Positions 2,458-18,907 are shown, numbered from the stretch's first letter. The stretch: DNA of 20,792 nt from Candidatus Heimdallarchaeota archaeon (GCA_046761065.1 JBHIFL010000070.1:1-20792), one strand, 5' to 3'. A program made the numbers and translations. The notes: generated from the letters alone by a model not told the origin.

Positions 2458-4332
2458 ATGGATAAAGTCAAGGTCTTACTTGATACAAATTTCTTTATTT
2501 ATGTCCTTCAAGACAATCATACTAATTTTGACATCATAGGTGACACTTGTCAACGATTAGGATATGAGCTTTACACTACTAATGATGTCTGGCATGAAAT
2601 TCAGCGGCAATATATGCGAACAAAAAGCAAACCTTACATCACAGACTGGATTGATTTATCAAAGCGTAAAAGTGAGTTTACTAGTTTCCAAAGTCAAGCC
2701 AAACAATTATTAAGAAGCTTACCGCAAATCCCAGATCTTAGTTTAGTTTTTGCTGCGAAAGAGATAGGTGATAGGGAGGTTCGGATTGTGAGTAGTGATT
2801 ACAAACTACTTGATTCCATTCCGTACCTCGCTCCAGAGATTCATGGAATAGCCAACAGCGTATTTGCTTTGGAATTACATGAAAAAGAAACTGATCCGCA
2901 ACAAAAGAAAAAACTCTATCGAATTCATGAAGAAATCTATTCGAAGGAGATCGAATATAGCCTTGAGCGTAAAGAGGTTTATTATCCACTTAGTAAGATC
3001 AAACTAATTAATGAACAAGCGATTAATGTGGTAAGACAGATTCACTCGCCTCAGTTGGCACTTCCAATGTTTGCTCATGAGGAGCTTGTCGATCTCGGTC
3101 CCGGGGTTCTCCTTGTCAAATCGATCGAGAATATCCGTGAACGCGAATCGTTTGTCGAAGATATTGAAGCAGAGCGCTATGATATGGTTATCCATGAGAT
3201 AGAAGAACTTCAACAGCGTATTGATGCTGATCTTGCTGTCTACTTACTTTCACTTGATCCCACTGTATATTCCGCCCTTATTCGGCAAATAAGTGCGGAT
3301 CTCGTTTTATTCCGATATTTCTGTGCCCTGGCTCGTCTTTACCGCGGCCAAACGGGGGATATTGAAATGGCACTTCAAGAAATTGAAAAAGCCGTGGAAA
3401 TTCTCAAATACACGAGCAATCCCAGTTTGGATCTCCGAATCATCGTTCCCTTCCTTCAAAACATTTTATTAATTTTGAATGAAGAATTTGAACGCGCAGA
3501 GCAATATTTTTCGCTCCTTCAATCCAAAGCTGAAGAATGGGGCTTTGAAACCGAACTGAAAGCCAGTGAAGGGATATACTTAGCCTTAGTTGCTTTGAGA
3601 GGTTATGAATCGGCTGATATTCCAACGCTTCGAGATCCTTCTCTTGTCACCACCTTTTTGTTAGATCTAGCACGACACCAATTTGCGCGCGCGGCTTTTA
3701 CCCCAGCTGCTCAAGTTCTTCAACAAGTAGTTGCTGTTTCTACGAAATATGAGTTACAAGCTGCAATGATTGAAACGTTAAGTGCATTACTCTTATTATA
3801 TTATGCCAACCCCGACAATAAACAACTCTCTTATTCAATAATGGAGGAAATTTTTAGGATCTATAACAAAAAAGGCTGGCGCGACAATTTTATCACAAAT
3901 ATGCATAAAGAGTTGTCTGAGCCCCAAAAACCGCTATACCGTCTTCAAAAGAAAAGATTTACTTCATTGGAGCGCCTACCAAAGAAACTGACAGGATCTT
4001 GGATGGATGTGTTCTGTGTAGAAAAATTACCGGAGGAGAAAACTGTTCTTTTGTACGTTAGAAATTGGGAACTTGATGCGAACTTGGGAATCTTTGTAAA
4101 CCATCATCAAAGTCCCCTAAAAGTGACAGCCGGGGACAGAATTCGATTGGCGGCAGGGAAATATAAATGCTTGATCCCAAAGAGTGCGATTGAAAAGAAA
4201 CATTCTACTCGTTTGTGTGTAGTACCTGACGAACGGAGTGAGATTTTAACTCGTGGCAGATCCGGGTTTCGCGTATTACGTACTGTTGGATCTACCAGTA
4301 TCGAGGTTGCCCAAAAGTTCAAACAATCTTAG
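2458..4332 (+). CDS. PIN-domain ribonuclease fused to a helical (TPR-like) region and a C-terminal beta-rich domain
   Basis: PIN signature VLLDTNFF (D9), VWHEI (E47), PDLSLV (D93), IVSSDYKL (D114). Amphipathic helix pairs follow (ALQEIEKAVEI, FERAEQYFSLL, FTPAAQVLQQVV) and then a beta-rich, basic C-terminus. Confidence 0.8.
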   Translation: MDKVKVLLDTNFFIYVLQDNHTNFDIIGDTCQRLGYELYTTNDVWHEIQRQYMRTKSKPYITDWIDLSKRKSEFTSFQSQAKQLLRSLPQIPDLSLVFAAKEIGDREVRIVSSDYKLLDSIPYLAPEIHGIANSVFALELHEKETDPQQKKKLYRIHEEIYSKEIEYSLERKEVYYPLSKIKLINEQAINVVRQIHSPQLALPMFAHEELVDLGPGVLLVKSIENIRERESFVEDIEAERYDMVIHEIEELQQRIDADLAVYLLSLDPTVYSALIRQISADLVLFRYFCALARLYRGQTGDIEMALQEIEKAVEILKYTSNPSLDLRIIVPFLQNILLILNEEFERAEQYFSLLQSKAEEWGFETELKASEGIYLALVALRGYESADIPTLRDPSLVTTFLLDLARHQFARAAFTPAAQVLQQVVAVSTKYELQAAMIETLSALLLLYYANPDNKQLSYSIMEEIFRIYNKKGWRDNFITNMHKELSEPQKPLYRLQKKRFTSLERLPKKLTGSWMDVFCVEKLPEEKTVLLYVRNWELDANLGIFVNHHQSPLKVTAGDRIRLAAGKYKCLIPKSAIEKKHSTRLCVVPDERSEILTRGRSGFRVLRTVGSTSIEVAQKFKQS

Positions 4333-4656: not shown

Positions 4657-7600
4657 ATGCGAGAAAAAATGCATATGAATAATTCAACCAAATTGATGGG
4701 ATTAGTTCTTTTAATTTTATTTTCTTTATCGATTCCCACCTCACTTAGTTTAGTTTCTGGGCAAAAGGAACCTGTTGATGAGAGTAGATCGCCTAATGCG
4801 ATTGGATTAGATACGTATACAGGTGGTTATGACAATAAACCCGCACCGCCCCTCCCTGAACAGATTGCCCCTCAGCCTCAATGGGATTTTTTGCTTAATC
4901 AGGATGTTGAACCCGTCAGACCCTGGCCCGCCGATTCAAACCTAGTCGTGAATATTGATACAGACCGAAGAACATACACCCCTGGTGATTTTATCAACTT
5001 CGTGATTTCAGTAACTTCTGAGTTTCGAGTGGTTCCCGAAGCCAAGGTGAATGTCAGTCTTTTTGAAGGGGATGCATGGTGGTGGTATGCCCCCGTTTAT
5101 TATGAATTCAAACTCCCTTCTATGCTTCAATCCATGATTCTAACTACTGATGAAAACGGCCGAGCCACAGGCAGCTTTAAAGTTGCAAAAGAAGGAGCTT
5201 ATTCAATCCATGCGGTTGTAACCGGTGGAAACATTACGCAAGAAATTTTCTCCACAGGTTATACCTATGCACAAGCTTACAAGACCATTCAAGTCTCAGA
5301 CCTTGCAACTTTCTGGCGAGTCCCATACATATGGGCCCTTGATGAAGAAATAACTAGTTATATCGTGGTACGAAAGACTGCCGACTTTTCCAAGCCAGTA
5401 ACTGATGCCAGCGTATCTATTACCCTATTCACAGGTGGAAGGTGGGAAGGAGAACCACAGACTGAAACCCTAGTCTATACTGGCTCAACAAATGCGGCTG
5501 GTCTAGTAGTAGCAAAATTTTCTGTTCCGAAACGAATCGTTACTGACGATTATTTCTCGAATTATGGTTATGCAACACTTACTGTTGAAAAGGACAATAA
5601 ATCGACACATACTACCCAATGGATCTCTCTGCTCCCCAGTTCGTCCTCTTGGGATATGTATTACGGGGAGGCTTCTTGGCCAGGGAAATATGAGTTTGTC
5701 GTAACGACTGACAAATCTGTGTACCAACCTGGTCAGTCAATCCAAACGCGTGTATTAGTTTTTGATAACTCCTATTATAATGTCTCCCGACGAGCGGCCT
5801 CAAAACTCCCTGTGATCGTTGACTTTATCGATCCCGAAGGGTTTCACGTCTCTCGCAGTCAAAGTACAACCGATGATAATGGAATCCTGACCAACGTCTT
5901 CAGTTTGGATAAAGACGCTGTACCTGGGAATTATTTACTCATTTATTCTGCAAGTGGCTCCGAAGTAACCATAAAAATCCCGGTGCGGTTCTACCAACGT
6001 CCAGCTTTTCGTGTGTCCATCGAGGCAGGGCGATACTATCAACCTGGCCAGACCATTGTTGGAAATATCACGGCAGAATATTATTTCGGGCAACCTGTCC
6101 ATGGAACATATGAAATTCACCTTTACCAACCAAGTGAAGGGATTTACTTAGAAGAGGAATCCGTTTCAATCGTTCCTGTTCCTACAGTACCTAGTAATAA
6201 TGAGTCCGAAACTCAAGAAAACGAAGCAAAATACAAGGCTATCGAACTAGCTACAGTCTCAGGGGAGTTGGATCACGATGGGTTCGGTAGATTCTCCATT
6301 CAAATTCCAAAGTCATTGGAACCGTATCCCGGGATGGGGCTTCAACTTAATGGAACGGTTACGGATGTAGCGGATCGGAAAGTGTCTACCTCCCAGATAA
6401 TCAGCGTGTCCCCTGAGATCTTTGTTTGGGCCTACGCTGACCCATTCAATGTTGAACTGGGTGAAGAGGTGATGCTCCACTTCTATGTTTCGGATGGTTG
6501 GTGGTGGCGAGGCAGCCCCCCTGCAGAGTCCTCCGTAGCTTACTCTGATATTGAGGTTCAGATCTACTCTAGACGCAATGGTAACCTGGGAAATCGGGTT
6601 TTTTCGGCTTCAACAACCACGGATCAGTTTGGGCAAGGTGAATTGGCCATTAAGCTCCCCGATGGTGTTGCAGCAGAGTACAAAGCCTTTATTGCAGTCG
6701 TTAAAGCAACAACGAAGGACGGGCGAGTTGGTGAAGGCCAAACATGGTTCCAATACTCCGTACTTGATTTTGACCTCTCCGTCACTCCAACACAAAGCAA
6801 TCCGGGTGACGAGGTGACGGTTACATTAACCTTGTCGAACAAATTAACAAGCTACCCCGAACGGGCTGAAGTTTTTGTATCTGCCCACGATTCAGATTAC
6901 GAACGGGTTGGTGAAGCTCAATTGACCCTCGACGGTATTAAATCCCTCACCATCCATCTGTCACCGTTAGCTCCGGAAGGAATGTACCAGCTCTATGCTT
7001 GGGTTGTAAATGATTACGATCCCTACCGATATGGCCTTTATCGTGACTACGGGTGGGCAGAGGCAACATTCATGGTAGGACAAATTTCTGAACTTCATAT
7101 AACCTCTGATCGTACAACTTACAATGTTGGGGAAGTAGCATCCATAAGCATAGAGACCATTTCAGCTTCGTCTGAAGAGATTCTACCAATATACTTCGAG
7201 ATCTCGAAACGTGGGCTCATGTTCATCACCATTTTAGATAGTCCAAGTGTTACGCTGGATTTACCGCTGACTTACAACCATGCACCTAAACTCTTTCTTA
7301 ATGCATTTGCCATTGGAGCTTCTGGAACCTTTTTAACGGCTTTCAGCGAGATTCAGATAGATTTTGACCTCACCGTGAATATTTCTACTAACAAAGAGAC
7401 ATATGAACCTGGTGATCAAGCAACTATTACAATAACAGTAGAAGATGGAAATGGGTTACGAATCCCTGCGTTAACAAGTTTGGTACTCGTGGATTCTTCG
7501 GTTTATGGAGTCGTTCCCGACCCTGAATGGGAAAAGGACGCGTTCATGGAGGAAGATTTCTATTCCTCCCTTACCACGAGGATAAGTTGGGTTAGTTCGC

Positions 7601-10600
7601 AAGGAGTGTACCCTTATTGGGGGATCCTGTACTACGGGGTTCCAGAGGGAGTGGGGGTCCTACGTGGAGAGGAGCAAGTCGTTGTAGAGACACTTCTGGC
7701 CACTACCACACCGGGGATGGCTTTGACTGAAGTGAAAAGTCAGGAGTTTCCCGAAGTTCAGGAAGTTGAAATTCGCAAGGAATTACCCGAATCAGCGTTT
7801 TGGTTTCCAAAACTTGTGATAGGGTCTAGCGGGGAGCGATCTCTCACGGTGAAACTCCCTGATAATATTGGTGAATGGACAATTCGGACTGTCACCAACG
7901 TCCAAGGGTATGGATCTCTTGACAAGATTACTATCACTACCTTTAAGGACTTCTTCATTGAATTGAAGCACCCTCTGTTTGTCTACCAAGACGACATGTT
8001 TGAGATTCAAGGAATTCTATACAATTATGGCCGGGATGCCTCAGCTCAAGCGAGTCTTCGGTTTGAAGGGGAAGGTCTCGCCAACTTAGTGAATGCTCCT
8101 ACTCAAATTGTCCCAGTTTTTACAAACGAAATAACAATTGTAAGCTGGTATGTTTTTGCCTCTGAACCCGGGCAGATCTACGCAATTGCCACCGCAGCGA
8201 CAAATGACGAACGGACGGATGGCCTCCAAAAGCCACTAACCATCAAACCCAATGCCGTCTTGTTCGAGGATCGCTTCGCTGGAGTTGTGAATGAAACCCA
8301 TCTCACTTATTATCTATATACGCAATCAATTCAGCATTCTGCCCGATTGACCATCGTGCCGGGCTTCACAGGGGCAGCTTTAGAAGGATGGCGGCGTTTA
8401 ATTGGATACCCTTATGGCTGCACTGAACAGACAATGTCTCGCTTGTTACCTTCTGCGCTTGTTTACAAATATCTTCAGGAAACGGGACAGCTCGACAGTG
8501 ATACTCAAACACTCATCGAAGATATGATCATTGCGGGGATAACTCGGCTGTATGCATTTCATCATCGTGATGGAGGATGGGGGTGGTGGGAGAAGGATGA
8601 ATCCAACGTCCATATGACGGCTATTGTATTATTTGGATTTGGGATCCTAAAGGAGCTTGGGTTTAGTATTGATTTCCAAATGATCAATTCGGCAATCGAT
8701 TACCTATTTCGTCAACAACATGAGGGGCATTGGTCAATGGAAGGTCGTGGCTGGGAAATAGGATCATTAGAATTGACTGCTTATATCATCCGGTCAATTC
8801 TAATTGCAGATCCTTCATACGCTTCAGAACGTCACATCAAAGACGCCTTTGCATTCCTTGAAAACGCGTGGGCGTCGTCCCGGAATCCCTATCTAGGAGC
8901 CCTTCTAGGCCAGGCCATCTTACGTACTGGAATGCATCAAACCCTATTTGAGCGAATTATTAACTACTTGGCGAGTTCTTATAATGTCGAAGGCGGCAAC
9001 ATGATCTACTGGGGGGAAACGGAGTGGTGGCACTGGCATTCCTTGGGTGGGCCTGTGGAGACCACGGCTATTGTGATCCAGTTGCTCCTAGAAGCGGAAC
9101 GCACCGAATATTTTCTACATGTAAATCGCGCTGCTAATTGGCTTATGTCTCGCCAGAACCGCTTTGGCTGGGGCACCACCGCAGATACAAGTGCGGCAAT
9201 CCTAGCCATTACGACGCTAGCAAAACTGGGCGGCGCTGACATTGATAATACGGTCTATATCACCGAAAATGGACAGTTAACTCATGAATTCCACTTTACA
9301 TCGGCTTCCCAAGCTCAACGGGTTCGGCTTAGTCCACAAGTGGGGCTAAACACCGTTGAACTTGAAAAAGACGGGATTGGAATAATCTTCTATCATCTCG
9401 AAATATCAAGTTATGTTCGAACCGAGCTTCAACTAAAGAGTCCTTCCACACTAGAAGTCACTGTAAACACTTCATTCCCATTGTTAATTGACCTTCAATT
9501 TGATGAAACAAGTCCAGTCCTGCCAGTTGATGTTGTGGTTCATCTAGAGGAATGGGACGACTCTCTAGAATTAGTGTCCGATCCTAAAATTCACTTTGCC
9601 CAGCTATCCTCATCAACAGGCGTCAATTTTTATTTTGCTCCAAAAGAGACTGGGACCTTCCTGATAAATCGAATCCGGGTACAATACAACCTTGCTTGTC
9701 GCGAAGAGTTGTCGAACCGTGCTCCGGCTACCCTTTCCCAGACCCATGGTCCCATAACAATCAGAGTGCAAAAACAAAGTTCCACGCCCACGCAAACCCA
9801 ACAGGTATGGTTCTCTTCTTTCCAATTCAATCAACTGAAAACCCAGAGAGGGGCCCAACAAAGTACAGGCAAAAGCACAATAACTATTGCTAGGACTTAT
9901 TCAAAGTCAACAGGAATTAAGATTGGAGAAACCATCTTTGTCACAATTTTGATTACAAACGAATTGGACCAACTCATGTCCTATTTAGTGGTCGAAGAAC
10001 CCCTCTTGCCGTGGTTTGCCCTTGATGAATATTCGTTGCATTCTAGTGAGTACAGTTGGACGGTTACAAGTGACCAGTTGACCTTCTTTATTCCTTCCCT
10101 CGAAAGCGGGCAGGATGCAAAAATCGAATATGGAATCATCGCAATTGGAAATGGAGATGTTAGCGCCGCAGCCACAGTAGTTTCCTCTATGTATAGTGCC
10201 TTGGTATACTATGGCACTCCAAATCGACTGATCACTGTGGATATTCCCCTAGTGACCTTTACGAATGGGATTCCACGCCTTGATACTACTCCTCCGATTA
10301 TTTCTGATGTAAAAATTTCTAACACACAACCAAAAGTCTCAGAACGAGTCAAAATCAGTGCACACGTAGTGGATGATCAGGCGGTACAAGATGTTCTGCT
10401 ATGGTACAAATCAGAACACGAAACGGCATGGAACAAACAGTTAATGACACTAACTTCTTCGGTGGAACCGTTATATACCATAGAGCTTCAGTTCAAAACT
10501 GAAGGCTCCATTTTAATCCTCATCCAAGCAGTAGATTGGGCGCAAAACAGCAATTCAACAGACGAATATCGATTGATTGTAGAAGGCGGTAAAAGAGGAA

Positions 10601-10758
10601 CACAGTTACTTCCTCTTATAGGTCTTGGTGTAAGCACAGCCCTTATTGCATTTGGAGTGATCTTCTATAAGATTTTCTATCAACGGAACGCTCATGCAGC
10701 CCCTAAAGGAGATAAATTTTTACCAAAATACATTAAAAGCAATATAAGACCAAAATAA
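4657..10758 (+). CDS. Alpha-2-macroglobulin family thioester-containing protein, secreted and C-terminally membrane-anchored
   Basis: N-terminal signal peptide; repeated MG-domain openings (TDRRTYTPGD, TDKSVYQPGQ, YYQPGQ, SDRTTYNVGE, TNKETYEPGD); IRKELPESAFWFP...LPDNIGEWTIR A2M segment; thioester YPYGCTEQTMS at 8407-8439; TED motifs DGGWGWW, VETTA and WGTTADTS; receptor-binding-like domain (YLVVEEPL...SMYS); TM helix at 10606-10668 and a basic tail. The start could also be the ATG at 4669 or 4675. Confidence 0.95.
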   Translation: MREKMHMNNSTKLMGLVLLILFSLSIPTSLSLVSGQKEPVDESRSPNAIGLDTYTGGYDNKPAPPLPEQIAPQPQWDFLLNQDVEPVRPWPADSNLVVNIDTDRRTYTPGDFINFVISVTSEFRVVPEAKVNVSLFEGDAWWWYAPVYYEFKLPSMLQSMILTTDENGRATGSFKVAKEGAYSIHAVVTGGNITQEIFSTGYTYAQAYKTIQVSDLATFWRVPYIWALDEEITSYIVVRKTADFSKPVTDASVSITLFTGGRWEGEPQTETLVYTGSTNAAGLVVAKFSVPKRIVTDDYFSNYGYATLTVEKDNKSTHTTQWISLLPSSSSWDMYYGEASWPGKYEFVVTTDKSVYQPGQSIQTRVLVFDNSYYNVSRRAASKLPVIVDFIDPEGFHVSRSQSTTDDNGILTNVFSLDKDAVPGNYLLIYSASGSEVTIKIPVRFYQRPAFRVSIEAGRYYQPGQTIVGNITAEYYFGQPVHGTYEIHLYQPSEGIYLEEESVSIVPVPTVPSNNESETQENEAKYKAIELATVSGELDHDGFGRFSIQIPKSLEPYPGMGLQLNGTVTDVADRKVSTSQIISVSPEIFVWAYADPFNVELGEEVMLHFYVSDGWWWRGSPPAESSVAYSDIEVQIYSRRNGNLGNRVFSASTTTDQFGQGELAIKLPDGVAAEYKAFIAVVKATTKDGRVGEGQTWFQYSVLDFDLSVTPTQSNPGDEVTVTLTLSNKLTSYPERAEVFVSAHDSDYERVGEAQLTLDGIKSLTIHLSPLAPEGMYQLYAWVVNDYDPYRYGLYRDYGWAEATFMVGQISELHITSDRTTYNVGEVASISIETISASSEEILPIYFEISKRGLMFITILDSPSVTLDLPLTYNHAPKLFLNAFAIGASGTFLTAFSEIQIDFDLTVNISTNKETYEPGDQATITITVEDGNGLRIPALTSLVLVDSSVYGVVPDPEWEKDAFMEEDFYSSLTTRISWVSSQGVYPYWGILYYGVPEGVGVLRGEEQVVVETLLATTTPGMALTEVKSQEFPEVQEVEIRKELPESAFWFPKLVIGSSGERSLTVKLPDNIGEWTIRTVTNVQGYGSLDKITITTFKDFFIELKHPLFVYQDDMFEIQGILYNYGRDASAQASLRFEGEGLANLVNAPTQIVPVFTNEITIVSWYVFASEPGQIYAIATAATNDERTDGLQKPLTIKPNAVLFEDRFAGVVNETHLTYYLYTQSIQHSARLTIVPGFTGAALEGWRRLIGYPYGCTEQTMSRLLPSALVYKYLQETGQLDSDTQTLIEDMIIAGITRLYAFHHRDGGWGWWEKDESNVHMTAIVLFGFGILKELGFSIDFQMINSAIDYLFRQQHEGHWSMEGRGWEIGSLELTAYIIRSILIADPSYASERHIKDAFAFLENAWASSRNPYLGALLGQAILRTGMHQTLFERIINYLASSYNVEGGNMIYWGETEWWHWHSLGGPVETTAIVIQLLLEAERTEYFLHVNRAANWLMSRQNRFGWGTTADTSAAILAITTLAKLGGADIDNTVYITENGQLTHEFHFTSASQAQRVRLSPQVGLNTVELEKDGIGIIFYHLEISSYVRTELQLKSPSTLEVTVNTSFPLLIDLQFDETSPVLPVDVVVHLEEWDDSLELVSDPKIHFAQLSSSTGVNFYFAPKETGTFLINRIRVQYNLACREELSNRAPATLSQTHGPITIRVQKQSSTPTQTQQVWFSSFQFNQLKTQRGAQQSTGKSTITIARTYSKSTGIKIGETIFVTILITNELDQLMSYLVVEEPLLPWFALDEYSLHSSEYSWTVTSDQLTFFIPSLESGQDAKIEYGIIAIGNGDVSAAATVVSSMYSALVYYGTPNRLITVDIPLVTFTNGIPRLDTTPPIISDVKISNTQPKVSERVKISAHVVDDQAVQDVLLWYKSEHETAWNKQLMTLTSSVEPLYTIELQFKTEGSILILIQAVDWAQNSNSTDEYRLIVEGGKRGTQLLPLIGLGVSTALIAFGVIFYKIFYQRNAHAAPKGDKFLPKYIKSNIRPK

Positions 10759-10804: not shown

Positions 10805-11617
10805 TTACAATGTAATTTGAAGCAGATCCTTTGCAATGAAGACCTCACCATTAAACTTAGCGCGCACTATTTTTAGAATTTCTTCTTCTCTGTTAGTGGT
10901 TTCAGGATAGAAATGCGTTAGACAGAGTTTCTTCACCTTGCAGGCTTGTGCTAAGACTGCGACTTTGGTTGGAGTACTATGACCTCTAAGTAGCTCTTGA
11001 GGACTGTCATCCATAAAACTACACTCGTGTACAAGGAGATCCGCCTTTGTAGCAAGCCGTTTTAAGTTCTCACAGGGCGCAGTGTCTCCTGAATATACAA
11101 TGGCCTTGTTTTCAATCACAAATCGGTAAGCAACCGCTTCGATCCTGAAATGATCCACTTTTGTACAAGTTACCTCCCAATTTGGTCCTCCTATAATACG
11201 CCCTTCTTCAACTTCTGCTACTTTAAAGTCAGTTCGCCCCTCCAAGTAGGGAAAGAGGTTTTGGACAATAGCATTACAGAAGGCGTAAGTTCCTTGGGGT
11301 CCAAAAATTTTCAAATCGTGCGGAGATGGATATAGGGCTTTGGCTTGAAAAAGGGCAGGCACATCAGAAGTATGATCTACATGTAAATGGGATAGAAAAA
11401 GATGTGAAATCTGAGTGTAATGATTTCCTGACCGAACAATTTGTCTAAGGACTCCACTGCCACAATCAATTAAAAAGTAGAGCTGAGTTCCTTTATCAGT
11501 TAATAATAGCCCTGGAGCATTTCGATCCTCCTGGGGGATAGCAACTCCCGAACCTAGGATCGTTAAGATTGGGTTACAATATCCCTGTGACCTTGTTTTT
11601 ATGATATTGTTAGACAT
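10805..11617 (-). CDS. MBL-fold metallo-hydrolase, RNase Z/ElaC-like (short form)
   Basis: Motifs TILGSG, LIDCGSG, SHLHVDH (HxHxDH), YSGDT, HECSF, HST and LTHF. The ORF is open to 11755, but the ATG at 11617 fits the fold better. Confidence 0.88.
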   Translation of the reverse strand: MSNNIIKTRSQGYCNPILTILGSGVAIPQEDRNAPGLLLTDKGTQLYFLIDCGSGVLRQIVRSGNHYTQISHLFLSHLHVDHTSDVPALFQAKALYPSPHDLKIFGPQGTYAFCNAIVQNLFPYLEGRTDFKVAEVEEGRIIGGPNWEVTCTKVDHFRIEAVAYRFVIENKAIVYSGDTAPCENLKRLATKADLLVHECSFMDDSPQELLRGHSTPTKVAVLAQACKVKKLCLTHFYPETTNREEEILKIVRAKFNGEVFIAKDLLQITL

Positions 11618-11859
11618 TTTTATTAGGGCTTCCTTCGATTTCTTTTTCAGCCCTCTTCTTGAACATTCGGATGATTTTCCTAGATAATCAGAAAATTGAA
11701 CAGCCAATGATTGAACTTTTCTATTAAAAACTTTTTTAGTTCGAACTGTAAACATACATTTAGGTATCTTTCCTTAGGATTAATGTGGGAATTTATCCTT
11801 TTCAGTTCGATTATCGAATTGAAGCTTCAATAACGCTCACTCTGTTTTCCTTTATCCGG

Positions 11860-14942: not shown

Positions 14943-15974
14943 CTAACTTATTGCTTTCTCGCCAAAGAGGTTAACGAGGAAATCTAAATCCCTCTCTGTT
15001 CGTGCAAAAACTCCTACGTTGCCAAGGCGAATATTCTTAAGACCAGCTTCTTTCATCACGAGAAAACTTTGCACGATTTCTTGTAATGTAGGTGATCGCA
15101 CCTTTTTGAGTTTGTACTCAGGGAAAAACGCCAAAAGGGTTGTTGGGATAGAAGGATCCGTTTCCGCGATCAGTTCAGCGATTTTCTGATGTTGATCCGT
15201 CTCAACCCATGTTGGGATAAACAACATCAAAACTTCTAAAACGAACCCTGCATCGACCGCGCGTTGAATGCTGGTAAGAATATGGCTATTGGTAGTCCCA
15301 CATAACTTGTGGTACACCCTCTCGTCATAGGCTTTGATATCCAGCCAAAAGGAATCGACTCCCCCAGCTTTTAAAACCTCTAAATTCTCATCTGTAAGTC
15401 CGTACCCATTGGTTTCGATTAGGACCCAAACATTACACGCATCCTTTATCTTCTCAGCTGCCTCCGCATAATAATCCGCCTGACAGACGATATCTCCTCC
15501 GCTAAAGGCAACAATATTTCTCGCAGGGCCCCATCCTTGCGGACTAAGAACCACTTGCCCAATTTCGAGCTTATGAGGGCACCAAGGGTGTCTCTGCCCT
15601 TGAATACAACGCCCGCAATGGTGGCAGAGATCGCCCGCATGGTACATCGTGCTACGCTCTCGAGGTTCCTGCACAGTCACATCGTCGGCATATCCCGCAA
15701 TAATTTTTACCAGTTGTGACGTTGAAACCCAGTCTCCTACGGCTACTTGTGAAAAGGTGTGTGAATGGCATTTCAGGCAGGTATGATTGCAGCCCGACTG
15801 ATAAATAGAAAAATAGTCTTCCGGCCGACTTAAGTGCATAGAAGCGATCAACCGCGAGTACTCCCGTCTATCTTTTTTAAGGGTTGCTTGACACGCGAGT
15901 TGAAATCCGTGTGAAGTAGAAACAAGGCAAGATCCTCTAGTAAACCCTTGTTGTCGCATTACACATTGTTGCAA
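14943..15974 (-). CDS. Radical SAM protein, PFL-activating-enzyme-like family
   Basis: CNHTCLKC (CxxxCxxC), AFSGGD, IETNGY and WLDIKAYD motifs, plus an extra Cys cluster CHHCGRC...WCP. Confidence 0.92.
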   Translation of the reverse strand: MQQCVMRQQGFTRGSCLVSTSHGFQLACQATLKKDRREYSRLIASMHLSRPEDYFSIYQSGCNHTCLKCHSHTFSQVAVGDWVSTSQLVKIIAGYADDVTVQEPRERSTMYHAGDLCHHCGRCIQGQRHPWCPHKLEIGQVVLSPQGWGPARNIVAFSGGDIVCQADYYAEAAEKIKDACNVWVLIETNGYGLTDENLEVLKAGGVDSFWLDIKAYDERVYHKLCGTTNSHILTSIQRAVDAGFVLEVLMLFIPTWVETDQHQKIAELIAETDPSIPTTLLAFFPEYKLKKVRSPTLQEIVQSFLVMKEAGLKNIRLGNVGVFARTERDLDFLVNLFGEKAIS

Positions 15975-15991
15975 CTAAAATGCCCCAATTG

Positions 15992-16576
15992 CTAATCAAT
16001 CGATCTCACGGAAGTTTTACGGTAAAAATGCCAAGCAAGGAAATACGTTATTATTACAACAATAGCTCCACTGATATACCAGAATGAGCTAAAAAATGCA
16101 GAAAAGTTATACATAGCATGAAGCACCACCGCTATTAAATAGAACTGGATTGTGCGCCTAGTTGCAATCCCATAGGTGGTGGTTGATGTACTTGCAGCAT
16201 GAAAGAACAGGCCAGGTAATCTGATGGGTAGTGACGCTCTGATAACTAGAATATATAACACAAATTCCGAGAGGCCAAACCCCAAACCAACTAGAAAACC
16301 TAGGGTAAATAAGGATCTCTCCGTCTCGCCATGTCGATAGAACATAGGATATGCTTTTGCATATTCTTCAATGAGCGGTGTGAAAAGTGCGACGGAGCAT
16401 AATGCGGCTAAGAATCTTGGCAAAATGGCACATAGAGGTTCTGTGAGAGTTCCAATAAAAAGCGTAAAGGGAACGCTTATTATTATTCCAGAGATTAAAA
16501 AGAATAGTTTCTCTTTTTCGTCAGGTTTATGGGTAGTTATTATTATTTTATCCTGTACATATTGTTCAATACCCAA
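15992..16576 (-). CDS. prsW: PrsW-family intramembrane glutamic/metalloprotease
   Basis: PLIEEYAK (EExxK), GFGLSE, FHAAST and LHAMYN motifs in a multi-TM protein; TTG start with an AGGTGA RBS. Confidence 0.85.
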   Translation of the reverse strand: MGIEQYVQDKIIITTHKPDEKEKLFFLISGIIISVPFTLFIGTLTEPLCAILPRFLAALCSVALFTPLIEEYAKAYPMFYRHGETERSLFTLGFLVGLGFGLSEFVLYILVIRASLPIRLPGLFFHAASTSTTTYGIATRRTIQFYLIAVVLHAMYNFSAFFSSFWYISGAIVVIITYFLAWHFYRKTSVRSID

Positions 16577-18244: not shown

Positions 18245-18907
18245 TCATTTCTTTTCATCAGAAAGTAAAAAGTCCCAGCTTGTCAAATTTATGGTGATCT
18301 CAAAATTATCACCGTCCGGACAATTTACCTGTAAACTGACGTGGTCTTTGTCTTGAGAAGTGATGATTGGAGTGAGACAGCCTTCTTTGAGTTTCTGTAC
18401 AAGGAATGCTACAAAATGATCGGTTACAAGCTCGAGACTTCCATTGATAAGCTGTTCCCCCAGTTTTCCTAGAAACACTCGGACTTCTCGCCCATCCCGA
18501 AATCGTTCGACCAATCCCACTTTTTCAAACTGGGTCAAATGGTATCTAACCGTATCATGATGAACTCCTACCATATTTGCTATTTCTTGTTGGTTCATAC
18601 CCGGAGTATTTATTACTAGTCGAAAGATTGCTTGTGCGGTTTTACTCCTCAGCGCCGCAAGCGCCCTCGCACTTTCAACACTTGATAACTTCCGGGGATA
18701 ATAGATCCGCTTCCCCCCAAATTTAGTGGAATTAATGAGCCCTTCTTTCTCCAATTTCCGCAGATGCCAATCCAAGGTCCCTTGGGATGTGGCCAACTCT
18801 GAGGCAATTCGGTAGCAATGTATTCCGGGTGATTCACACACCACTTCATAAATCCGGCGGCGAATGGGATTTAACAGTAGGCTCAAACGTTTTTGAAATC
18901 TGGGCAT
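18245..18907 (-). CDS. Tandem winged helix-turn-helix transcriptional regulator (ArsR-like, archaeal double-wHTH type)
   Basis: Two repeats: RRRIYEVVCESPGIH...GTLDWHLRKLEKEGLI and IFRLVINTPGMNQQEIA...TVRYHLTQFEKVGLV, then a short C-terminal domain. Confidence 0.9.
   Translation of the reverse strand: MPRFQKRLSLLLNPIRRRIYEVVCESPGIHCYRIASELATSQGTLDWHLRKLEKEGLINSTKFGGKRIYYPRKLSSVESARALAALRSKTAQAIFRLVINTPGMNQQEIANMVGVHHDTVRYHLTQFEKVGLVERFRDGREVRVFLGKLGEQLINGSLELVTDHFVAFLVQKLKEGCLTPIITSQDKDHVSLQVNCPDGDNFEITINLTSWDFLLSDEKK

What the first reader, a model, noticed from the sequence alone, without database searches (positions are those of the whole stretch)
4657..10758. Giant archaeal-type alpha-2-macroglobulin/thioester protein with an intact GCTEQ: candidate cell-surface protease-trap or covalent-tagging defence system
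Seen: a 2033-aa ORF with a signal peptide, MG-domain repeats, the PYGCTEQ thioester motif (Cys codon at 8419) and the TED helical motifs. I could find only one other Cys in the protein, which points to selection on the thioester Cys. Known: CxEQ thioester proteins (A2M, complement C3/C4, CD109, insect TEPs, E. coli YfhM) trap proteases or tag targets covalently, and bacterial ones are often lipoproteins encoded next to pbpC (PBP1C). Here there is no lipobox Cys and no pbpC neighbour, and the genomic context looks archaeal. Inference: an archaeal surface innate-defence protein, relevant to the origin of eukaryotic TEPs and complement if the host is Asgard-related.
Basis: partly seen in the sequence, partly recalled or inferred. 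Interest (0 to 1): 0.88.

Follow-up and report, generated by a model that had tools for sequence, protein, structure and literature searches.

The report
Membrane-anchored thioester macroglobulin of Asgard archaeon
This gene encodes a 2,033-residue cell-surface protein of the alpha-2-macroglobulin/complement family with an intact thioester site, from an Asgard archaeon; it is most likely a membrane-tethered trap for foreign proteases, and the tests possible here show no special kinship with animal immune proteins.

Summary

The host is an Asgard archaeon. The closest homologues are labelled Hodarchaeota or Heimdallarchaeota, and the genome carries two eukaryote-like actins and two Snf7 genes.

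The protein belongs to a clade of about 1,950-2,080-aa proteins found in several Asgard lineages, including the cultured Promethearchaeum syntrophicum and Lokiarchaeum ossiferum. All 57 aligned members keep GCxEQ, the signal-like helix and the C-terminal anchor. Distribution is patchy: 34 of 301 sampled genomes of the phylum have a match.

AF2 models match native (not activated) A2ML1, A2M, CD109 and TEP1. A disordered, hypervariable loop lies at the bait position. dN/dS is 0.19.

Trees put the Asgard proteins on one side of a well-supported branch, apart from bacterial A2Ms. By profile scores they are closer to a bacterial YPYGCxEQT class (about 280 bits) than to animal TEPs (160-191 bits). 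The link to eukaryotic complement is therefore not supported, though no eukaryote-inclusive tree could be built.

Archaeal A2M homologues with CxEQ were published in 2021 (PMC8416519). This scan has already reported the same family on other DNA.

Verdict: real, a new member of a known kind, moderate interest.

The parts
4657..10758 (+). Whole gene, 2,033 codons plus stop. Alternative starts at 4669 (Met5) and 4675 (Met7).
   Evidence: dN/dS 0.19 against the orthologue in L109
4657..4761 (+). N-terminal signal-like region (aa 1-35, hydrophobic core aa 12-35, no Cys and so no lipobox)
   Evidence: an N-terminal hydrophobic segment is detected in 54 of 57 homologues
4939..7596 (+). N-terminal array of beta-sandwich macroglobulin (MG) domains including the bait-region domain (aa ~95-980)
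   Evidence: AF2 model me5846e9c6095, pLDDT 78.6. Foldseek matches ECAM, the C3/C5 beta chains and A2ML1 at E 1e-24 to 1e-27. Pfam MG2 347-430, MG3 (below cut-off) and A2M_BRD 813-951.
6142..6231 (+). Disordered acidic insert specific to this lineage (aa 496-525)
   Evidence: 92% gaps in the other homologues; pLDDT <40; high dN
7606..7791 (+). Bait-like loop (aa 984-1045): disordered, variable in sequence and length, lying between the BRD and the MG7 (A2M) domain
   Evidence: Lowest conservation in the protein, with 46-75 aa in homologues. pLDDT 23-37. dN 0.196 against 0.086 gene-wide.
7795..8040 (+). A2M (MG7) domain, aa 1047-1128, containing the invariant LPDNIGEWT motif
8362..9228 (+). Thioester domain (TED), an alpha/alpha toroid, aa 1236-1524
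   Evidence: Pfam TED_complement 6.9e-31. Helices 207-495 of model m6a4d304c7628. VIA Z 27.3 to the C5 TE domain and 25.2 to C4Adg.
8416..8430 (+). Thioester motif G-C-T-E-Q (aa 1254-1258); the Cys1255 codon is at 8419-8421
   Evidence: Y1251, P1252, G1254, C1255, E1257 and Q1258 are invariant in 57 homologues. dN = 0 in this window.
9244..9771 (+). Beta-strand region after the TED: presumed second half of the CUB domain plus one beta-sandwich (aa 1530-1705)
   Evidence: strands 501-676 of the model; weak BatD hit
9781..9870 (+). Disordered Q/S/T-rich linker (aa 1709-1738)
   Evidence: pLDDT <50; low conservation
9880..10236 (+). DUF11/bMG10-like beta-sandwich (aa 1742-1860). It falls inside the range that aligns up to the C-terminal receptor-binding (MG8) domain of A2ML1.
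   Evidence: Pfam DUF11 3.4e-5 (at its cut-off) and bMG10 0.0073 (below cut-off); model range 15-831 aligned to A2ML1 731-1454
10255..10581 (+). Extra membrane-proximal Ig-like beta-sandwich (aa 1867-1975), with no Pfam family
10606..10674 (+). C-terminal transmembrane helix (aa 1984-2006)
   Evidence: a C-terminal TM is present in all 57 homologues
10675..10755 (+). Short basic cytoplasmic tail (aa 2007-2033)

Best explanation
The gene encodes a type I membrane protein of the alpha-2-macroglobulin/thioester-protein (A2M/TEP) family on the surface of an Asgard archaeon related to Heimdallarchaeia. After export, the large ectodomain stays tethered by a C-terminal helix. The ectodomain consists of an MG-domain array, a bait-region domain, MG7, CUB, a TED and C-terminal beta-sandwiches. 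Inside the TED, Cys1255 and Gln1258 would form a buried thioester (inferred from the invariant motif and the native-like fold, not shown). An exposed, disordered, fast-evolving loop (aa ~984-1045) occupies the bait position. When a foreign protease cuts it, the protein would rearrange, expose the thioester, and link the protease covalently through a lysine amine. That would immobilise the protease at the membrane, as described for monomeric traps such as E. coli ECAM, A2ML1 and CD109. No histidine is conserved at the position of the catalytic His of C3/TEP1. This favours amine-directed, A2M-like chemistry over hydroxyl tagging in the manner of C3.
For: Family identity: the Pfam hits MG2, A2M_BRD, A2M and TED_complement are all above cut-off. 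Sequence hits in the PDB are A2ML1 3e-34, A2M 6e-32, TEP1 1e-30 and CD109 1e-23. Fold: the C-terminal half has pLDDT 84.6 and pTM 0.78. It superposes on native forms: A2ML1 Z 28.8 at rmsd 3.9 A over 645 residues, frog A2M Z 28.7 at 3.1 A, CD109 Z 28.4, TEP1 Z 28.3 and ECAM Z 24.4. Activated forms fit only at rmsd ~14 A. Native C3/C5 give TM ~0.55 against 0.25 for C3b. Thioester: GCxEQ and the preceding YPYG are invariant in 57 homologues, with dN = 0 and dS = 0.45 in that window. Bait: the loop between the BRD and MG7 is the least conserved stretch, varies from 46 to 75 aa, has pLDDT 23-37 and a dN twice the gene mean. Topology: the signal-like N-terminus and C-terminal TM are detected in 54 and 57 of 57 homologues. 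Selection: dN/dS is 0.19. Chemistry: the position aligned to the TEP1 His is Glu here and R/S/G/E across the family. Host: two actins at 454 and 445 bits, two Snf7 genes, and homologue labels.
Against: Nothing biochemical is known for any member of this clade. Thioester formation, bait cleavage and protease capture are all inferred. dN/dS in the bait-like loop is 0.31, so the loop is fast-evolving but shows no positive selection at this resolution. No protease, protease-related partner or PBP1C-like gene is linked to the gene. The alignment around the catalytic-His position is gapped and of low confidence. The family was not found in most sampled genomes of the phylum, so it is not essential for an Asgard cell.
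Confidence: 0.6

Rival explanations
1. Covalent tagging or adhesion. The surface-tethered thioester attaches the archaeon covalently to another surface, such as a syntrophic partner cell, a virus or a mineral or organic particle. This would resemble C3/TEP1 opsonins or the thioester adhesins of Gram-positive bacteria, rather than trapping of soluble proteases.
For: The protein is membrane-anchored on a long stalk made of two extra beta-sandwiches and a flexible linker, which suits reaching outward. Sequence and fold similarity to TEP1 is as strong as to A2M. From my own knowledge, not tested here: cultured Asgard archaea live in close contact with partner cells.
Against: The family has no conserved His at the C3/TEP1 catalytic position that promotes reaction with hydroxyls. 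A bait-like disordered loop and a bait-region domain are retained, as in protease-triggered traps. No ANATO or C345C/NTR domains were detected.
Confidence: 0.22
2. A structural or self-directed envelope protein. The thioester cross-links the protein to the archaeon's own surface layer or to neighbouring copies, building or repairing a protective coat, with no role against foreign proteins.
For: It is a large multi-Ig-like surface protein with a membrane anchor. It occurs in nearly all sampled genomes of two families (19 of 21 and 5 of 7) and as a single copy in this genome.
Against: It was not found in 267 of 301 sampled genomes of the phylum, including five genomes that are 95-99% complete. 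That does not fit a core envelope component. The predicted conformation is the spring-loaded native state of protease-triggered TEPs.
Confidence: 0.1
3. The Asgard clade is the evolutionary source, or the closest prokaryotic sister, of animal TEPs and complement.
For: With matched profiles, the Asgard clade scores slightly higher than the bacterial class against animal A2M/TEP1/A2ML1 (191/166/164 bits against 173/149/145 bits). It is far from enterobacterial ECAM (45 bits). VIA Z is higher to animal TEPs (28-29) than to ECAM or the Salmonella A2M (24).
Against: Asgard and bacterial proteins score much higher against each other (median 274-284 bits) than either does against animal proteins. The YPYGCxEQT signature is shared with bacteria. 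The 15-20 bit difference is small. From my own knowledge, not tested here: TEPs are reported essentially only from animals among eukaryotes, which argues against vertical descent through the first eukaryote. Distribution within the Asgard phylum is patchy.
Confidence: 0.07

Closest known systems
Archaeal alpha-2-macroglobulin homologues described by Makarova et al. 2021 (PMC8416519)
   Same: Archaeal proteins with Ig-like/MG domains plus a TED carrying an intact CxEQ, and typically a signal peptide. That paper counts 27 such proteins in 24 archaeal genomes, and its phyletic table lists 2 in Heimdallarchaeota LC_3.
   Different: The paper discusses mainly Halobacteria and Methanomicrobia and their gene neighbourhoods. 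It does not describe the ~2,000-aa clade with a C-terminal anchor that spans several Asgard lineages. The neighbourhood features it reports (arCOG14565, other Ig-domain surface proteins, antimicrobial-peptide transporters) were not noticed in this window, but I did not test for them specifically.
Animal monomeric protease-trapping TEPs: A2ML1 (PDB 7q1y) and CD109 (8s3o); also A2M (7von, 6tav) and insect TEP1 (4d94)
   Same: They are the best sequence matches among solved structures (E 3e-34 to 1e-23). The native MG7-CUB-TED-MG8 arrangement is the same (Z 28-29, rmsd 3-4.7 A over ~600-660 residues). The thioester motif and a bait loop are present. CD109 is also membrane-tethered.
   Different: Identity is only 17-21% in the structural alignments. 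The motif is GCTEQ in a YPYGCxEQT context, which is the prokaryotic signature. The protein is anchored by a C-terminal TM helix rather than GPI. It has extra C-terminal beta-sandwich domains and about 340 extra N-terminal residues. There are no disulfides (2 Cys in total), and Pfam A2M_recep is not detected.
Bacterial A2M class with YPYGC[VT]EQT (MG2 domain-containing proteins of Acidobacteriota, Ignavibacteriota and others, ~1,500-1,800 aa)
   Same: They are the closest non-archaeal relatives by profile score (median 274-284 bits over MG7-CUB-TED). They share the thioester context motif and the same core domain hits.
   Different: They fall on the opposite side of a strongly supported branch (100). 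They are about 300-500 aa shorter. I did not check whether they have a C-terminal TM anchor.
Enterobacterial type 1 A2M: E. coli ECAM/YfhM (5a42, 4ziq) and Salmonella SaA2M (4u48)
   Same: Monomeric, membrane-tethered, thioester-bearing and bait-triggered. The overall fold is shared (Z ~24; N-terminal half E 1e-27).
   Different: Sequence similarity is weak (2e-8 over ~110 residues; 45 bits with the profile). Here there is no lipobox and no pbpC, and the anchor is at the C-terminus.
Complement C3/C4/C5
   Same: MG array, CUB and TED. The native-state fold matches (TM ~0.55; Z 26-27.7).
   Different: No ANATO or C345C/NTR domain hit. No conserved catalytic His. Sequence similarity is much lower (C3 5e-16).

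Membership tests
A2M/TEP (thioester-containing protein) superfamily | Array of macroglobulin (MG) beta-sandwich domains | tested here: met
   Pfam MG2 7.6e-21. The AF2 N-terminal half is all beta-sandwich and matches ECAM, the C3 beta chain and A2ML1.
A2M/TEP (thioester-containing protein) superfamily | Bait-region domain followed by an exposed, cleavable bait loop before MG7 | tested here: inconclusive
   A2M_BRD 1.3e-19. A disordered hypervariable loop lies at aa 984-1045 in the expected place. Cleavability was not testable.
A2M/TEP (thioester-containing protein) superfamily | Alpha/alpha-toroid TED inserted in a CUB domain | tested here: met
   TED_complement 6.9e-31. Helical domain 207-495 of the model is flanked by beta strands. 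Z 27.3 to the C5 TE domain.
A2M/TEP (thioester-containing protein) superfamily | CxEQ thioester motif | tested here: met
   GCTEQ at aa 1254-1258; Cys, Glu and Gln are invariant in 57 homologues
A2M/TEP (thioester-containing protein) superfamily | An actual Cys-Gln thioester bond and covalent capture of a target | not testable with these tools
   Needs methylamine, heat-fragmentation and protease-adduct assays
A2M/TEP (thioester-containing protein) superfamily | C-terminal receptor-binding (MG8, A2M_recep) domain | tested here: inconclusive
   No Pfam A2M_recep hit. A beta-sandwich at aa 1742-1860 with a weak bMG10 hit lies in the range aligned to the C-terminal end of A2ML1.
Enterobacterial type 1 A2M (ECAM/YfhM) | N-terminal lipobox (lipoprotein anchor) | tested here: not met
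   No Cys in the first 1,254 residues; the anchor is a C-terminal TM helix
Enterobacterial type 1 A2M (ECAM/YfhM) | Gene adjacent to pbpC (PBP1C) | tested here: not met
   Neighbours are a PIN/TPR-like protein, an MBL-fold protein, OCD, MFS, radical SAM and PrsW. No transglycosylase or transpeptidase gene appears in 16 Asgard loci.
Complement C3/C4/C5 | Anaphylatoxin (ANATO) and C345C/NTR domains | tested here: not met
   No such Pfam hits at E <= 0.01
Complement C3/C4B/TEP1-type thioester chemistry | Catalytic His about 110 residues after the Cys, which directs reaction to hydroxyls | tested here: not met
   The position aligned to the TEP1 His is Glu1367. That column is R/S/G/E/N across 57 homologues and no His is conserved at aa 1352-1377. 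The alignment there is gapped.
   support 99; SH-aLRT 99
Known anti-phage defence systems (PADLOC) | Match to a PADLOC model for the protein or its neighbours | tested here: not met
   0 families for the protein and four neighbours

The most novel reading that the evidence does not exclude
The Asgard membrane-anchored thioester proteins are the closest prokaryotic relatives of animal TEPs, either as the source of a transfer into an early animal or holozoan ancestor or as a remnant of an archaeal-host surface immunity module. They would then act as a genuine self/non-self covalent tagging system on the Asgard cell surface. The slight excess of Asgard-to-animal over bacterial-to-animal profile scores does not exclude this.
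Probability: 0.07. Interest if true: 0.85.

Novelty: new member of a known kind. Interest (0 to 1): 0.4.

Why it matters
The A2M/complement family is a pillar of animal innate immunity, and in prokaryotes only enterobacterial members have been studied biochemically. This gene belongs to an archaeal branch that is under purifying selection and is carried by several Asgard lineages, including the cultured P. syntrophicum and L. ossiferum. Its function can therefore be tested directly by thioester chemistry, protease capture and surface localisation. If it is a tethered protease trap, it would show how wall-less archaeal cells that live in close contact with bacteria protect an exposed membrane. 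The more exciting idea, that it bears on the origin of eukaryotic complement-type immunity, is not supported by what could be tested here and needs a tree that includes eukaryotes.

Tried and rejected
- **Eukaryote-inclusive phylogeny.** No tool gave me eukaryotic TEP sequences by reference, and the PDB search returns no reusable sequences. I therefore used only matched-profile bit scores.
- **The search for related loci on genome contigs.** The two conserved patterns are shared with bacteria. These loci served as the bacterial sample for the tree, not for distribution. Because they were selected by the YPYGC[ITV]EQ pattern, their uniform motif is circular.
- **Conserved partner gene.** None spans the family. 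Hodarchaeales-type loci have PolB and an MFS transporter upstream, which is ordinary synteny. Loki/Hermod-type loci have a membrane-tethered wHTH upstream, and this was not found in the window's genome with that query.
- **Upstream 624-aa ORF.** No BLAST link to neighbours of other loci. The Atlas suggests a PIN plus TPR-like cytoplasmic protein.
- **PADLOC.** No hit.
- **NCBIfam.** No meaningful hit.
- **RNA evidence.** No RNA holder is listed for this stretch.
- **Anchor module in other proteins.** The C-terminal 294 aa gave only marginal hits (1e-4) to one other ORF in the genome. This was not pursued.
- **Low Cys content as evidence of selection.** Rejected, because homologues have 1-14 Cys. 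Invariance of the thioester Cys is the valid argument.


Full report
**1. Observation**

The + strand ORF 4657..10758 is open for 2,033 codons. It contains PYGCTEQ at aa 1252-1258, and the Cys1255 codon is at nt 8419. There is exactly one other cysteine, Cys1681.

Pfam places these domains above their curated cut-offs:
- MG2 at aa 347-430 (7.6e-21)
- A2M_BRD at aa 813-951 (1.3e-19)
- A2M at aa 1047-1128 (1.5e-17)
- TED_complement at aa 1243-1519 (6.9e-31)

MG3 (aa 449-549) scores just below its cut-off, DUF11 (aa 1743-1844) scores exactly at its cut-off, and A2M_recep is not detected.

A hydrophobic stretch at aa 12-35 looks like a signal peptide and contains no Cys, so there is no lipobox. 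This gives a type I membrane topology. Other gene callers start the protein at Met5 (2,029 aa) or Met7.

**2. Host and surroundings**

The window is a whole 20.8-kb contig of a 4.4-Mb, 234-contig genome bin with 91% completeness and 8% contamination.

The nearest homologues are 89% and 85% identical over the region searched. NCBI labels them Candidatus Hodarchaeota and Candidatus Heimdallarchaeota. The 89% homologue lies in a contig that is syntenic over at least six genes.

The genome also encodes two full-length eukaryote-type actins (454 and 445 bits on Pfam Actin) and two Snf7/ESCRT-III genes. It is therefore an Asgard archaeon. The DNA occurs in hydrothermal-vent metagenome runs from a single study.

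The neighbours in the window are:
- a molybdopterin oxidoreductase domain protein
- a 624-aa protein with a weak PIN hit, which the Atlas places with TPR-like proteins
- a convergent MBL-fold gene
- an ornithine cyclodeaminase
- an MFS transporter
- a radical SAM protein
- a PrsW-like protease
- a double wHTH regulator
- an acetyl-CoA synthetase

There is no PBP1C-like gene and no PADLOC match.

**3. The family**

A search of 5.8 billion proteins returned about a hundred proteins, most of them full length at about 1,950-2,080 aa, with the same Pfam content. Where they carry names, they come from Hodarchaeales, Heimdallarchaeota, Kariarchaeaceae, Thorarchaeota, Lokiarchaeota and Hermodarchaeota. 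They include the cultured Promethearchaeum syntrophicum (P0058) and Lokiarchaeum ossiferum (P0091).

In an alignment of 57 full-length members:
- Y1251, P1252, G1254, C1255, E1257 and Q1258 are invariant.
- All 57 have a C-terminal TM helix, and an N-terminal hydrophobic segment is detected in 54 of them.
- Cys content ranges from 1 to 14. In three members the thioester Cys is the only Cys.

The family is not universal in the phylum. A profile search of 301 sampled genomes found it in 34. It is concentrated in a few families (19 of 21, 5 of 7 and 4 of 68) and was not found in others (0 of 76 and 0 of 29). A TED Pfam scan of five genomes that are 95-99% complete, drawn from the negative groups, was also empty. 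The window's genome has a single copy.

**4. Structure**

I folded two halves with the 57-sequence alignments.

The C-terminal half (aa 1030-1985) has pLDDT 84.6 and pTM 0.78. It shows, in order: MG7, beta strands, a 290-residue helical TED, more beta strands, a beta-sandwich, a disordered Q/S/T-rich linker, and two further beta-sandwiches before the TM helix.

| Matched structure | State | Z | rmsd (A) / residues aligned |
|---|---|---|---|
| Human A2ML1 | native | 28.8 | 3.9 / 645 |
| Frog A2M | native | 28.7 | 3.1 / 601 |
| CD109 | native | 28.4 | 4.3 / 660 |
| TEP1 | – | 28.3 | 4.7 / 631 |
| Human A2M monomer | native | 27.7 | 4.3 / 651 |
| ECAM | native | 24.4 | 5.1 / 581 |

Protease- or methylamine-activated forms fit only at about 14 A rmsd. 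Foldseek agrees: native C3/C5 give TM ~0.55 and C3b gives 0.25. The predicted state is therefore the spring-loaded native one.

The N-terminal half (aa 95-1045) has pLDDT 78.6 and is a string of beta-sandwiches that match ECAM, the C3/C5 beta chains and A2ML1. Its last 60 residues (aa 984-1045) have pLDDT 23-37.

**5. Bait-like loop and selection**

The stretch at aa ~985-1030, between the BRD and MG7, is the least conserved part of the alignment. Its length varies from 46 to 75 residues.

Against the orthologue in L109, the gene as a whole has dN 0.086 and dS 0.44, so dN/dS is 0.19. The 50-codon window holding the thioester has dN = 0 with dS 0.45. The bait-like window has dN 0.196 and dN/dS 0.31. 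The loop evolves fast but shows no positive selection at this resolution.

A second disordered, fast-evolving insert (aa 496-525) is specific to this lineage.

**6. Chemistry**

In the phmmer alignment to TEP1, the catalytic His of TEP1 aligns with Glu1367. In the alignment to human A2M, the corresponding Asn-containing stretch falls in a gap. Across the 57 homologues no His is conserved anywhere in aa 1352-1377.

From established knowledge of C3, C4 and A2M, this His directs the thioester toward hydroxyl groups, and proteins without it react mainly with amines. By inference, the chemistry here is A2M-like.

**7. Relationships**

Among solved structures, animal TEPs score far better than enterobacterial A2Ms: A2ML1 3e-34 against ECAM 2e-8. 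The nearest non-archaeal sequences, however, are bacterial MG2-domain proteins of Acidobacteriota, Ignavibacteriota and others that share the YPYGCxEQT context.

Matched 13-sequence profiles of the MG7-CUB-TED core give the following scores in bits:

| Target | Asgard profile | Bacterial profile |
|---|---|---|
| Human A2M | 191 | 173 |
| TEP1 | 166 | 149 |
| A2ML1 | 164 | 145 |
| CD109 | 160 | 156 |
| ECAM | 45 | 100 |

Asgard and bacterial proteins score a median of 274-284 bits against each other. Animal TEPs are therefore roughly equidistant from the two prokaryotic groups, and those two groups are closer to each other.

In trees of this core, the Asgard proteins fall on one side of a strongly supported branch and the bacterial proteins on the other side of another:
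- FastTree, 132 rows: support 99 for the Asgard side and 100 for the bacterial side.
- IQ-TREE quick with LG+G4, 49 rows: SH-aLRT 99 for the Asgard side and 100 for the bacterial side.

A Nanobdellota protein and a set of ~2,550-aa proteins of unnamed origin branch between them. The trees are unrooted and contain no eukaryotes, because no tool provided eukaryotic sequences by reference. The question of eukaryotic origin therefore stays formally open. Nothing here supports a special tie between Asgard and eukaryotic proteins.

**8. Gene context across the family**

I compared 16 loci and found no partner that spans the family.
- Hodarchaeales-type loci have a family-B DNA polymerase and an MFS transporter upstream.
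- Six Loki/Hermod-type loci have a ~170-188-aa protein directly upstream on the same strand. It has a winged-helix motif and, by hydrophobicity, apparently two C-terminal TM helices, and no Pfam family. I did not find it in this genome.
- In the window's own lineage, only the convergent MBL-fold gene and the nearby 624-aa protein recur.

**9. Literature and earlier notes**

Makarova et al. 2021 (PMC8416519) already report archaeal A2M homologues with a TED and an intact CxEQ: 27 proteins in 24 genomes. They are mostly from Halobacteria and Methanomicrobia, and the supplementary table counts two in Heimdallarchaeota LC_3. Full-text searches for Asgard together with macroglobulin or thioester found no paper on this clade.

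This scan has already reported the same family from other genomes, with the same reading. Those are AI notes and not independent evidence. I reached the same points on this window with my own tests.

**10. Verdict**

The gene is real, intact and under purifying selection. It is a member of the A2M/TEP family in an Asgard-specific branch that is anchored by a C-terminal helix.

- The most likely mechanism is a membrane-tethered, bait-triggered covalent protease trap (about 0.6).
- The main rival is a covalent tagging or adhesion role (about 0.2).
- The suggested link to the origin of eukaryotic complement is unsupported (about 0.07).
- Novelty: new member of a known kind.
- Interest: moderate. 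The family is untested biochemically and can now be tested in cultured Asgard archaea.

Noticed in passing
L094:6365-6877, L101:6228-6785, L100:6243-6776, L107:2227-2790 (+); L095:13104-13670, L102:13972-14496 (-): In six Loki/Hermod-type loci a ~170-188-aa protein sits directly upstream of the A2M orthologue on the same strand. It has a winged-helix DNA-binding motif and, by hydrophobicity, apparently two C-terminal membrane helices. It may be a membrane-tethered regulator of the gene. It has no Pfam family and was not found in the window's genome.
   Followed up: partly
P0105-P0107; L005 (Nanobdellota) and P0102: A2M relatives of ~2,550 aa and unnamed origin, and a DPANN (Nanoarchaeia) A2M, branch between the Asgard and bacterial groups. 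There may therefore be a wider archaeal branch of the family.
   Followed up: partly
window 6142-6231: A disordered acidic insert (aa 496-525) within the N-terminal MG array is specific to this lineage. It is absent from 92% of homologues, has pLDDT <40 and a high dN. It could be a second exposed loop.
   Followed up: partly
window 2458-4332 (+): A 624-aa protein with a borderline N-terminal PIN hit, which the Atlas places with TPR-like proteins. It stays close to the A2M gene in the two nearest relatives (L109 2650-4518, L110 6736-8619), though other genes lie between them there. Function unknown.
   Followed up: partly
window 10805-11755 (-): An MBL-fold (Lactamase_B_2) gene convergent with the A2M gene is conserved in that position in L109 and L110. 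The products of the relatives also carry a precomputed Anti-Pycsar Apyc1 Pfam hit. PADLOC found nothing.
   Followed up: partly
window 14943-16576 (-): A radical SAM gene followed by a PrsW-like intramembrane protease gene. The same pair is present in L110 (22068-23704).
   Followed up: no
window 18245-18907 (-): A 220-aa protein with two winged-helix domains of the haloarchaeal HVO_0163 type, an archaeal-style regulator.
   Followed up: no
G000:C20:30439-30687 (L113): Besides two intact actin genes (C42, C5), the genome has a short actin-like fragment with four in-frame stops. It is a probable pseudogene remnant.
   Followed up: no
G000:C21:25860-26411 (L117, L118): A 616-aa ORF gives marginal matches (E 1e-4 and 7e-4) to the membrane-proximal Ig-like domain of the A2M protein. 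This domain may be shared among surface proteins.
   Followed up: no
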